Shown: positions 44,277-44,887, counted from the first letter of the stretch. The stretch is DNA of 64,000 nt from Escherichia coli (GCF_016026235.1 NZ_CP065613.1); one strand, 5' to 3'. Made by a program: numbers and translations. Notes: generated by a model from the letters alone, not told the origin.

Positions 44277-44507
44277 ATGAAGTGGTCAACAAAAACTGGC
44301 CACCGCGTTAGAGTTTTTCCAGTATCGGTTTTCTGATTCGTTTGGCGGTAACCCACCATTATATTCGTGCGGTCTTAGTGCGCTGTAATATCCAACGATA
44401 TAGTCCGTTATTGCGTGAGCTGCATCGCTGAAGCTTACATAGCCCGTCGCCGGCACCCATTCGTTCTTCAGACTCCTGAAGAAGCGCTCCATTGGGCTGT
44501 TATCCCA
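44277..44507 (-). mobile_element. 3' remnant of an IS3-family element (IS911-like end and transposase OrfB C-terminus)
   Basis: ORF 44286..44492 ends ...[12 protein letters not shown]...[20 protein letters not shown] (IS3-family integrase C-terminus); terminal sequence TGAAGTGGTCAAC... on the plus strand resembles IS911 ends. Truncated at the junction with IS1. Confidence 0.6.
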
Positions 44508-44887
44508 GCAGTTTCCGCGCAGACGATGACGTCACTGCCCGGCTGTATGCGCGAGGTTACCGACTGCGGCCTGAGTTTTTTAAGTGACGTAAAATCGTGT
44601 TGAGGCCAACGCCCATAATGCGGGCTGTTGCCCGGCATCCAACGCCATTCATGGCCATATCAATGATTTTCTGGTGCGTACCGGGTTGAGAAGCGGTGTA
44701 AGTGAACTGCAGTTGCCATGTTTTACGGCAGTGAGAGCAGAGATAGCGCTGATGTCCGGCAGTGCTTTTGCCGTTACGCACCACCCCGTCAGTAGCTGAA
44801 CGGGAGGGACAGCTGATAGAAACAGAAGCCACTGGAGCACCTCAAAAACACCATCATACACTAAATCAGTAAGTTGGCAGCATCACC
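44508..44887 (-). mobile_element. Truncated IS1 (first ~380 bp including insA, variant CPSRSATDG)
   Basis: IS1 end GGTGATGCTGCCAACTT at 44871..44887 (reverse complement) and insA ORF 44557..44832; IS1 identity stops near 44508 where IS3-family sequence begins. Confidence 0.8.

What the first reader, a model, noticed from the sequence alone, without database searches (positions are those of the whole stretch)
44277..44887. Composite IS scar: truncated IS1 fused to an IS3-family remnant
IS1 identity (left end and insA) stops abruptly near 44508 and continues as the C-terminal end of an IS3-family transposase plus an IS911-like terminal repeat. This marks an IS-mediated deletion separating the hsd operon from the DUF262 module and shows the island was assembled stepwise. 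The insA copy here has CPSRSATDG in place of the usual CPSCSATDG, breaking a zinc-finger cysteine.
Basis: seen in the sequence. Interest (0 to 1): 0.3.

Follow-up and report, generated by a model that had tools for sequence, protein, structure and literature searches.

The report
Dead IS1–ISEc52 fusion remnant
The 610 bases between two anti-phage gene modules of this E. coli genomic island are the fused wreck of two insertion sequences, IS1 and an IS911-like ISEc52, left by a 1.18-kb deletion between 5-base repeats. The remnant is real, occurs in about 170-180 complete E. coli genomes, is already annotated as two pseudogenes, and is biologically ordinary.

Summary
On the minus strand, 44887→44512 is IS1 nt 1-376: an intact left inverted repeat, the IS1 promoter, a full 91-codon insA and the start of insB'. 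44511→44278 is the last 234 nt of an IS3-family element. That element is 100 % identical to a copy PGAP labels ISEc52 and about 92-94 % identical to copies labelled IS911.

The junction lies in a 5-bp microhomology (GGAAA, 44516-44512) inside an 11/13 match. About 20 E. coli chromosomes keep the precursor: IS1 nt 1-541 abutting a complete 1,249-bp ISEc52. The scar equals that precursor minus 1,180 bp. The last deletion therefore removed only IS DNA. It was a short-homology deletion, not a transposase event, because neither IS end sits at the junction.

A third allele (IS1 1-240 | IS110-family remnant | ISEc52 933-1249) sits on at least 343 plasmids, mostly Klebsiella. All three alleles share the IS1 insertion site, the ISEc52-end|DUF262 junction and the InsA C11R change. 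C11R is therefore old and private to this copy, and is probably neutral.

An assembly chimera is excluded: the exact junction is in 171-179 complete genomes. Stepwise island assembly is supported. This is a known kind of feature and of low interest.

The parts
44888..44918 (-). 31-bp spacer between the stop codon of the M48/YgjP-like gene (44919-44921) and the IS1 left end. This is the IS1 insertion site, shared by all three alleles.
   Evidence: the identical sequence ...TTCTAACTTATTCCAATGGGCTCATTTGTC|GGTGATG occurs in the window, PSS-08-1, BY63 and plasmid pEC28-AU-EG1.
44512..44887 (-). IS1 remnant, IS1 nt 1-376: left inverted repeat, promoter, insA and the first part of insB'. The right 392 nt, including IRR, are missing.
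   Evidence: 99.2 % identity over 376 nt to the intact IS1 at window 36342-37109. PGAP annotates it as 'IS1-like element transposase; frameshifted; incomplete; missing C-terminus'.
44865..44887 (-). IS1 left terminal inverted repeat (IRL), exact 23-nt core.
   Evidence: 0 mismatches; 0 matches expected in 100 shuffles.
44853..44880 (-). Promoter-like site CTGCCA-16-TATGAT overlapping IRL, at the position of the IS1 promoter (PIS1/PIRL). It points towards insA and the downstream DUF262 genes.
   Evidence: consensus scan, 9/12. PMC12903888 and PMC12428005 describe a weak PIS1 that partly overlaps IRL and is repressed by InsA. Activity here was not tested.
44557..44832 (-). insA, complete 91-codon ORF with Cys11→Arg (codon CGT at 44802-44800).
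   Evidence: R11 is also present in precursor allele A (L004) and plasmid allele C (L020). C11 is present in both intact IS1 copies of the window.
44575..44581 (-). A6C (AAAAAAC) programmed -1 frameshift motif of IS1, retained. The insB' frame then runs into ISEc52 out of frame and stops at 44468.
   Evidence: Read from the sequence. ORF 44468..44638. Motif as described in PMC12903888.
44512..44516 (-). Deletion junction: 5-bp microhomology GGAAA shared by IS1 (nt 372-376) and ISEc52 (nt 1011-1015). It lies inside the 13-nt patch GTCTGCGCGGAAA / GTCGGCGTGGAAA (11/13 match; 44524-44512).
   Evidence: three-way alignment; 13-nt overlap of the two BLAST pieces; offset 1,180 bp; rank of the patch among all direct-repeat pairs.
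44278..44511 (-). ISEc52-like (IS3 family, IS911 relative) remnant, nt 1016-1249: the last 74 codons of orfB (44510..44289, stop 44288-44286) and the right inverted repeat.
   Evidence: PGAP annotates it as 'integrase core domain-containing protein; incomplete; missing N-terminus'.
44278..44301 (+). Right terminal inverted repeat of the IS3-family element (TGAAGTGGTCAACAAAAACTGGCC, read outside-in on the + strand). It contains an outward TTGACC hexamer (44289-44284 on the minus strand).
   Evidence: (unique in the window).
44259..44277 (-). Native 5' leader of the first DUF262 gene: TACCGC, then the AGGAGG Shine-Dalgarno (44271-44266), then the start codon ATG at 44261-44259. The IS end lies 6 bp upstream of the SD.
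   Evidence: PGAP start. The leader is homologous to the IS-free Vogesella ortholog (TACCCAAGGAGGCGTGATGGAAAGC).

Best explanation
This is an immobile composite remnant of two insertion sequences. It sits in the intergenic gap between a type I restriction-modification operon (hsdM-hsdS-yecA-like-hsdR-M48) and a two-gene GmrSD-like DUF262 cassette, in a defence island that lies between yecA and leuZ in E. coli.

Reconstructed history:
1. An ISEc52 copy came to lie with its right end 13 bp upstream of the DUF262 start codon, cutting off that cassette's native upstream region. The junction itself is shown: every one of 254 E. coli genomes carrying the cassette has it, and IS-free orthologs keep 170-420 bp of upstream DNA.
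2. An IS1 was inserted 31 bp downstream of the M48 stop codon and acquired InsA C11R. This is shown, because all alleles share both features.
3. The ISEc52 left end became joined to IS1 nt 541, with no target-site duplication. The junction is shown. Its cause is inferred: either an ISEc52 insertion into IS1 followed by an adjacent deletion, or recombination between two ISEc52 copies that brought the hsd and DUF262 modules together.
4. In the lineage of this window, a RecA-independent, short-homology deletion (replication slippage or illegitimate recombination) between two GGAAA repeats 1,180 bp apart removed IS1 nt 377-541 and ISEc52 nt 1-1010. The end-points and microhomology are shown; the enzymology is inferred.

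Consequences:
- Neither element can move. Each has one end and no DDE domain.
- The remnant keeps IRL, the weak IS1 promoter, an intact but zinc-motif-mutant insA and the frameshift site.
- Everything is co-oriented and no terminator is predicted. The DUF262 cassette is therefore most likely transcribed by read-through from the hsdR-M48 operon and/or PIS1. This last point is inferred and not tested.
For: Identity of the two halves.

Precursor allele. IS1 1-541 plus a complete 1,249-bp ISEc52 is seen in PSS-08-1 and BY63. Twenty-two records give single-piece 100 %-coverage hits to the IS1|ISEc52-IRL junction.

Scar versus precursor. The scar aligns to the precursor as two collinear blocks (1-439 and 427-751) that overlap by 13 nt, with an offset of 1,180 bp.

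Microhomology. The 5-bp repeat in an 11/13 patch is shown. Only 40 of about 1.6 million direct-repeat position pairs in the 1,790-bp precursor reach 11/13 or better.

Shared outer junctions and C11R in alleles A, B and C.

Population counts. The exact junction is in 171 genomes. The 751-bp scar plus flanks is in 179 genomes. The ISEc52|DUF262 junction is in 254 of 254 DUF262-bearing genomes.

IS-free orthologous cassettes with 171-417-bp upstream regions.

Transcription signals. No terminator-like site was found on either strand in 44150-45000, and a PIS1-like site lies at 44880-44853.
Against: - The direction precursor→scar rests on parsimony, not on a rooted phylogeny.
- The 11/13 patch is one of about 15 comparable patches in the composite and not the best one; a 13/13 repeat exists elsewhere.
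- The ancestor predicted for step 3, ISEc52 inside an otherwise intact IS1, was not found.
- There are no expression data, so read-through transcription and PIS1 activity are untested.
- The allele counts are not independent events. They reflect clonal sampling of sequenced E. coli.
Confidence: 0.9

Rival explanations
1. The junction was made by transposase action. This would be an IS1- or ISEc52-mediated adjacent deletion (intramolecular transposition) that removed DNA, possibly including genes, between the hsd operon and the DUF262 cassette.
For: Both families are known to cause adjacent deletions (established knowledge). The older junction, IS1 nt 541 | ISEc52 left end, lacks a target-site duplication (TAT vs TAC). 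That junction could well be such an event.
Against: A transposase-mediated deletion leaves an intact IS end at the novel joint. Here the joint is interior-to-interior: IS1 nt 376 to ISEc52 nt 1011-1016. The precursor allele shows that only 1,180 bp of IS sequence lay between the two end-points. The 5-bp microhomology in an 11/13 patch is the signature of short-homology deletion.
Confidence: 0.04
2. The fusion is an assembly chimera produced by collapsing repeated IS copies.
For: IS1 and IS911-like elements are multi-copy: a median of 12 IS1-containing places per genome. Such repeats are classic causes of misassembly.
Against: The identical junction, with both unique flanks, is present in 171-179 complete genomes from many laboratories, hosts and countries, and in 10 of 10 further assemblies examined. 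RefSeq annotates it consistently.
Confidence: 0.01
3. The remnant has been co-opted. The IS-derived sequences (PIS1, made constitutive locally by the crippled InsA C11R, and/or the outward -35 in the ISEc52 right end) act as the promoter cassette of the promoter-less DUF262 pair, and are retained for that reason.
For: The native upstream region of the cassette is gone in every E. coli and plasmid copy. IS1 nt 1-240, which carries PIS1, and the last ~317 nt of ISEc52 are the only parts common to alleles A, B and C. All parts are co-oriented and no terminator is predicted. InsA represses PIS1 up to ~17-fold (PMC12903888).
Against: - Retention is explained by common descent; the sequences are 99-100 % identical.
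- PIS1 is described as weak.
- Wild-type InsA is supplied in trans by other IS1 copies: two in this window and many per genome.
- The TTGACC-18-CATGAT candidate would start transcription downstream of the DUF262 start codon (sequence).
- Read-through from hsdR-M48 is a simpler source of transcription.
- There are no expression data.
Confidence: 0.12

Closest known systems
IS1 (IS1 family; IS1A/IS1B-type copies of E. coli)
   Same: Nt 1-376 are 99.2 % identical to an intact IS1 in the same window. The remnant has the same IRL, promoter position, insA (Zn_ribbon_InsA + HTH_Tnp_IS1) and A6C frameshift motif.
   Different: It lacks nt 377-768: most of insB' (the catalytic part of InsAB') and IRR. 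It therefore cannot transpose on its own. InsA carries C11R, a variant whose exact 61-mer is found in only 184 of 8,332 IS1-bearing E. coli records.
ISEc52 / IS911 (IS3 family)
   Same: The last 234-239 nt, containing the orfB C-terminus and the right inverted repeat TGAAGTGG..., are 100 % identical to a copy PGAP labels 'IS3-like element ISEc52 family'. They are 91.9-93.6 % identical to copies labelled IS911 or IS3 family, and 99.2 % identical to the full 1,249-bp copy in PSS-08-1.
   Different: Only about 19 % of the element is left. There is no left end and no orfA. The fragment begins just before the conserved ...DNSPMERFF... segment of orfB. The name ISEc52 comes from PGAP labels; ISfinder itself could not be queried.
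Short-homology (microhomology) deletions in E. coli, e.g. the classic lacI deletions between short direct repeats (recalled from the literature, not retrieved here)
   Same: The deletion end-points fall in a short direct repeat (5 bp exact, 11/13 extended) 1,180 bp apart, and one repeat copy is retained.
   Different: This is inferred from comparative sequence only. The event was not observed experimentally, and RecA-independence was not tested.
Nested or truncated IS clusters at module boundaries of defence islands and plasmids
   Same: IS fragments sit exactly between two self-contained defence modules. Alternative alleles A, B and C exist, and alternative neighbouring modules occur in other strains.
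   Different: Nothing distinguishes it from the general pattern.

Membership tests
IS1 family insertion sequence (complete, mobile element) | [quoted passage not shown] | tested here: not met
   IRL is present at 44887-44865. Identity to IS1 ends at nt 376 and no IRR follows. It is a fragment of a member, not a complete element.
IS1 family insertion sequence (complete, mobile element) | insA plus insB' joined by an A6C -1 frameshift to give the InsAB' transposase | tested here: not met
   insA is complete (91 aa) and the A6C motif is present (44581-44575). The insB' frame is cut at nt 376 and terminates at 44468 after 14 out-of-frame ISEc52 codons. The ORF scores 85.5 bits against NCBIfam transpos_IS1, below the 100-bit cut-off, and covers model positions 1-81 of 199 only.
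IS1 family insertion sequence (complete, mobile element) | 8-9-bp target-site duplication | not testable with these tools
   Only one end survives. For contrast, the intact IS1 at 36342-37109 has a perfect 9-bp duplication, AGTAAATCG.
InsA zinc-ribbon/HTH repressor | Four-cysteine CxxC...CxxC motif (C8, C11, C32, C35) plus a C-terminal HTH | tested here: not met
   Pfam Zn_ribbon_InsA and HTH_Tnp_IS1 both pass their cut-offs. However, C11 is Arg, whereas both intact copies in the window have Cys. The effect on zinc or DNA binding was not tested. The role of the motif in IR binding is attributed to Ohta et al. 2004, which is cited in PMC12428005 but could not be read.
IS3 family (ISEc52/IS911 group), complete element | About 1,250 bp with terminal inverted repeats 5'-TG...CA-3' | tested here: not met
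   Only the right end is present (44278-44301). The element is represented by nt 1016-1249.
IS3 family (ISEc52/IS911 group), complete element | orfA and orfB with programmed frameshift, giving a DDE transposase (rve domain) | tested here: not met
   Only the last 74 codons remain. They hit rve_3 positions 13-67 of 67 (E=1.3e-8) and transpos_IS3 positions 311-368 of 369, at 59.6 bits against a cut-off of 160. orfA and most of the catalytic core are absent.
IS3 family (ISEc52/IS911 group), complete element | 3-bp target-site duplication flanking the element | tested here: not met
   In the full-length precursor copy the flanks are TAT (left) and TAC (right). The two flanks therefore do not derive from one simple insertion.
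Short-homology-dependent deletion | The parental sequence has the same short repeat at both end-points, and the product keeps one copy | tested here: met
   The precursor (L004) has GGAAA at IS1 372-376 and at ISEc52 1011-1015; the scar has one copy. Only 40 of about 1.6 million position pairs reach 11/13 or better.
Short-homology-dependent deletion | Independence from transposase and RecA | not testable with these tools
   This requires genetics. The absence of any IS terminus at the joint argues against transposase involvement.

The most novel reading that the evidence does not exclude
The IS wreck may be a fixed regulatory cassette. The GmrSD-like DUF262 pair of E. coli and Klebsiella lost its own promoter to the ISEc52 insertion. 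It would now depend on the IS1 promoter retained in all three alleles, whose cis-encoded repressor is disabled by C11R, or on coupling to the type I R-M operon. Expression of one defence system would then be wired to IS1 regulation or to the neighbouring restriction system.
Probability: 0.12. Interest if true: 0.3.

Novelty: already known. Interest (0 to 1): 0.1.

Why it matters
It matters little beyond annotation. The scar is a convenient lineage marker. Three alleles of one IS composite link an E. coli chromosomal island between yecA and leuZ with a module carried on hundreds of Klebsiella plasmids. It also documents, base by base, how IS debris accumulates and decays at the seam between two defence modules.

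It corrects one tempting inference. The visible junction did not delete genes and was not made by a transposase.

The only functional question it raises is whether the promoter-less DUF262 cassette is transcribed from the hsd operon or from the IS1 promoter.

Tried and rejected
1. Assembly chimera. Rejected; the junction is in 171-179 complete genomes.

2. Transposase-mediated deletion at the visible junction. Rejected; no IS end lies at the joint.

3. Search for the hypothetical ancestor 'ISEc52 inserted in an intact IS1'. I used a synthetic query of the ISEc52 right end + TAT + IS1 nt 542-650. Only two-piece, non-contiguous matches were found, so the first joining step stays inferred.

4. 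Search for an IS-free upstream region of this DUF262 gene in E. coli. None exists; 254 of 254 genomes carry the ISEc52 end. IS-free versions were found only in other genera, at 78-90 % amino-acid identity.

5. Hybrid outward promoter from the ISEc52 right end (TTGACC-18-CATGAT). Judged unproductive, because the -10 overlaps the start codon.

6. In-frame fusion protein across the junction. Rejected; insB' reads ISEc52 out of frame and stops after 14 codons. The 56-aa ORF has no Pfam hit.

7. Structured RNA in the scar. There was no Rfam match at E≤1 in 43500-45800.

8. Reading Ohta et al. 2004 on the InsA zinc finger. The paper is not held.

9. C11R as a circulating IS1 allele. Rejected; the exact 61-mer is in 184 of 8,332 IS1-bearing records, about the number of records carrying this locus.

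Full report
**Observation**

Everything in 44277-44887 reads on the minus strand.

The IS1 left inverted repeat is exact at 44887-44865. It matches 23/23, with none expected in shuffles.

Aligned with the intact IS1 at window 36342-37109, identity runs from 44887 down to 44512. This is IS1 nt 1-376 with 3 mismatches, or 99.2 %.

The insA ORF (44832..44557) is full length at 91 codons. It passes Pfam Zn_ribbon_InsA (E=1.5e-19) and HTH_Tnp_IS1 (E=4.7e-31).

Its only amino-acid difference from the intact copy is Cys11→Arg, a TGT→CGT change at 44802. This removes the second cysteine of C8-x2-C11...C32-x2-C35.

The A6C frameshift motif is intact (44581-44575). The insB' frame crosses the junction out of frame and stops at 44468.

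From 44511 to 44278 the sequence is the 3' end of an IS3-family element:
- It is 100 % identical over 235 nt to a copy PGAP labels ISEc52.
- It is 97-98 % identical to most ISEc52-labelled copies.
- It is 91.9-93.6 % identical to copies labelled IS911 or IS3 family.

The 74 residual codons hit rve_3 and the last 58 positions of the NCBIfam IS3 transposase model. The terminal repeat TGAAGTGGTCAACAAAAACTGGCC starts at 44278.

'IS911-like' is acceptable; ISEc52-like is closer.

**The junction**

A three-way alignment shows the following:
- IS1: ...GTCTGCGCGGAAA|TGGACG
- ISEc52: ...GTCGGCGTGGAAA|CTGCTGGGATAAC
- scar: ...GTCTGCGCGGAAACTGCTGGGATAAC

The crossover lies in a shared GGAAA (44516-44512) within an 11/13 patch. 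Neither IS terminus is at the joint.

**The missing segment is recoverable**

The 5' part of the first DUF262 gene occurs in 254 of 5,426 complete E. coli genomes.

In strain PSS-08-1 (L004) and BY63 (L019), the same IS1 insertion site is followed by IS1 nt 1-541. This abuts the left end (TGAAGTGGTTTACTGAATTTGGCCACC...) of a complete 1,249-bp ISEc52 with orfA/orfB. The right end of that ISEc52 meets the DUF262 leader exactly as in the window.

The window's scar aligns to this composite as two collinear blocks that overlap by the 13-nt patch, offset by 1,180 bp. The scar therefore equals the precursor minus IS1 377-541, ISEc52 1-1010 and one repeat copy.

Twenty-two records give single-piece, full-length hits to the IS1(541)|ISEc52-IRL junction.

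Within the 1,790-bp precursor, only 40 of about 1.6 million direct-repeat position pairs reach 11/13 or better. The pair actually used is one of them, though not the best. By my own calculation, 5 bp or more of microhomology at a random joint has a probability of about 0.005.

This is the signature of a short-homology deletion (slippage or illegitimate recombination), not of transposition.

**A third allele**

Plasmid pEC28-AU-EG1 (L020) and at least 343 PLSDB plasmids, whose top-ranked matches are almost all Klebsiella pneumoniae, carry the same hsd-M48 ... DUF262-DUF262-Hhe module. Between the two parts they have IS1 nt 1-240, then a 255-bp IS110-family remnant, then ISEc52 nt 933-1249.

This allele keeps more ISEc52 than the scar does. 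It is therefore an independent derivative of the precursor.

No plasmid in the collection has the window's allele. The best plasmid coverage is 87 %, in two pieces.

All three alleles share three features:
- the IS1 insertion site 31 bp after the M48 stop codon;
- the ISEc52-end|DUF262 junction;
- InsA R11.

C11R is therefore older than any of the deletions. The exact 61-mer containing it is found in 184 of 8,332 IS1-bearing E. coli records, about the number of records carrying this locus. It is a private mutation of this copy rather than a circulating IS1 allele.

**Not an artefact**

The 751-bp scar with both unique flanks is present in 179 genomes at 80 % coverage or more. Up to three of those records could be the plasmid allele.

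A 100-nt junction-specific query finds 171 genomes. Ten of ten additional assemblies carrying the identical DUF262 protein have the same 657-bp spacing, and seven contain the scar base-for-base.

RefSeq already annotates the two halves as pseudogenes: 'IS1-like element transposase, frameshifted, incomplete' and 'integrase core domain-containing protein, incomplete'.

**Older steps and modularity**

In the precursor, ISEc52 is flanked by TAT and TAC, so there is no 3-bp target duplication. Its two flanks therefore do not come from one simple insertion.

The ISEc52-end|DUF262 junction is present in all 254 E. coli genomes that have the cassette. These include a different island in strain 50EVA, where a second ISEc52-like copy is nested 103 bp from the end of the first and the upstream neighbours are unrelated.

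Conversely, hsd-M48 is followed in strain STN0717-20 by a different module: a 612-aa DUF262 protein, a PD-(D/E)XK nuclease and a restriction endonuclease. In that strain homology ends at the M48 stop codon.

Orthologous DUF262 pairs occur in three other genera: Vogesella (90 % amino-acid identity), Shewanella (86 %) and Enterobacter (78 %). In all three, the two-gene cassette is conserved, has no IS, has 171-417 bp of upstream DNA and sits next to unrelated defence genes.

The window's 13-nt leader TACCGCAGGAGGC is homologous to the Vogesella leader. The ISEc52 end therefore replaced the cassette's native upstream region.

The joining of the hsd and DUF262 modules happened through the IS1/ISEc52 pair. 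Possible routes are an ISEc52 insertion into IS1 followed by an adjacent deletion, or recombination between two ISEc52 copies. The predicted intermediate was not found, so this step is inferred.

**Consequences**

Each remnant has one end and no catalytic domain, so the composite is immobile on its own.

The scan finds a PIS1-like site at 44880-44853. It finds no terminator-like site on either strand between M48 and DUF262, and no Rfam family matches.

All genes are co-oriented. Read-through from hsdR-M48, and possibly from the weak IS1 promoter, is therefore the most economical source of DUF262 transcription. This is inference only.

InsA normally represses PIS1 up to ~17-fold and competes with the transposase at the ends (PMC12903888, PMC12428005).

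Wild-type InsA is encoded by other IS1 copies in the same genome, two of them in this window. A broken zinc motif in this dead copy is therefore unlikely to matter.

The outward TTGACC in the ISEc52 end pairs only with a -10 that overlaps the DUF262 start codon. I reject it as a productive promoter.

**Verdict**

It needs correcting on mechanism and on what was deleted.

This is a well-understood kind of feature, already annotated and widespread. Interest is low. The comparative reconstruction into three alleles, and the link to Klebsiella plasmids, is the only added value.

Noticed in passing
window 34076-40600 (IS1 at 36342-37109, + strand): The anti-phage gene hhe is split in this window by a complete IS1 flanked by a perfect 9-bp target duplication, AGTAAATCG (36333-36341 and 37110-37118). 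The 1,170-aa N-terminal ORF (37088-40600) matches PADLOC Hhe positions 1-1161 of 1911. hhe is intact (5,736 bp) in ECCHD184 and BY63.
   Followed up: partly
window 36342-44887: The intact IS1 in hhe and the IS1 remnant of the scar are in inverted orientation, with both left ends (36342 and 44887) facing outward. Together they bracket 8.5 kb: the 5' part of hhe and both DUF262 genes. Formally this is a composite-transposon-like or inversion-prone arrangement. Mobility was not tested.
   Followed up: no
window 57051-57818 (- strand): A third IS1 copy is a divergent variant, 91.3 % identical to the 36342 copy, with IRL GGTAATG.... It has no target-site duplication (TTGAAGATG vs AGAGAATCG), which suggests an IS1-associated rearrangement at the integrase end of the island.
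   Followed up: partly
window 32577-33773 (+ strand): A 398-aa ORF between chromosomal yecA and the end of hhe matches the NCBIfam IS110-family RNA-guided transposase model (E=7e-71). It is absent from the corresponding gap in ECCHD184.
   Followed up: partly
window 55643-56779 and 58287-59516; tRNAs at 60547-60849: Two tyrosine-recombinase genes lie between the hsd module and the leuZ-cysT-glyW tRNA cluster. This suggests tandem or nested islands at this tRNA site.
   Followed up: no
window 49008-49691 (- strand) vs 31198-31863: A YecA-family (UPF0149/SEC-C) gene is embedded between hsdS and hsdR of the island's type I R-M operon (NCBIfam PRK10396, E=1.5e-104). The island sits next to the chromosomal yecA. 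The embedded copy also travels with the module on Klebsiella plasmids.
   Followed up: no
L020 6794-7606 (pEC28-AU-EG1) and at least 343 PLSDB plasmids: The whole hsd-M48 / DUF262-DUF262-Hhe block is common on large Klebsiella pneumoniae plasmids. There it has a different decay product of the same IS composite: IS1 1-240 | 255-bp IS110-family remnant | ISEc52 933-1249.
   Followed up: partly
L019 10798-12112 (strain BY63): A second, complete IS1 sits directly against the old IS1 remnant. It starts at the same base after the 31-bp spacer and is separated from the remnant's IRL by only TTTGTC, a repeat of the last 6 bp of the spacer. This points to repeated IS1 targeting of the same site.
   Followed up: no
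L004 4904-5179 (strain PSS-08-1): In this precursor-bearing strain the M48 gene is itself truncated by an inverted IS1 right-end fragment (IS1 nt 630-768). The hsd operon is replaced by the yehD fimbrial cluster, a further IS1-associated rearrangement at the same seam.
   Followed up: no
L021, L023, L024 (Vogesella, Shewanella, Enterobacter): The DUF262 pair (GmrSD_N+DUF7834, then GmrSD_N+GmrSD_C, overlapping by 8 bp) is a conserved two-gene cassette. It is found next to varied defence genes: type I-E Cas3/Cse1, Cas_NE0113, and an SNF2 helicase + AAA + S8 peptidase. PADLOC's best match is HEC-06.
   Followed up: partly
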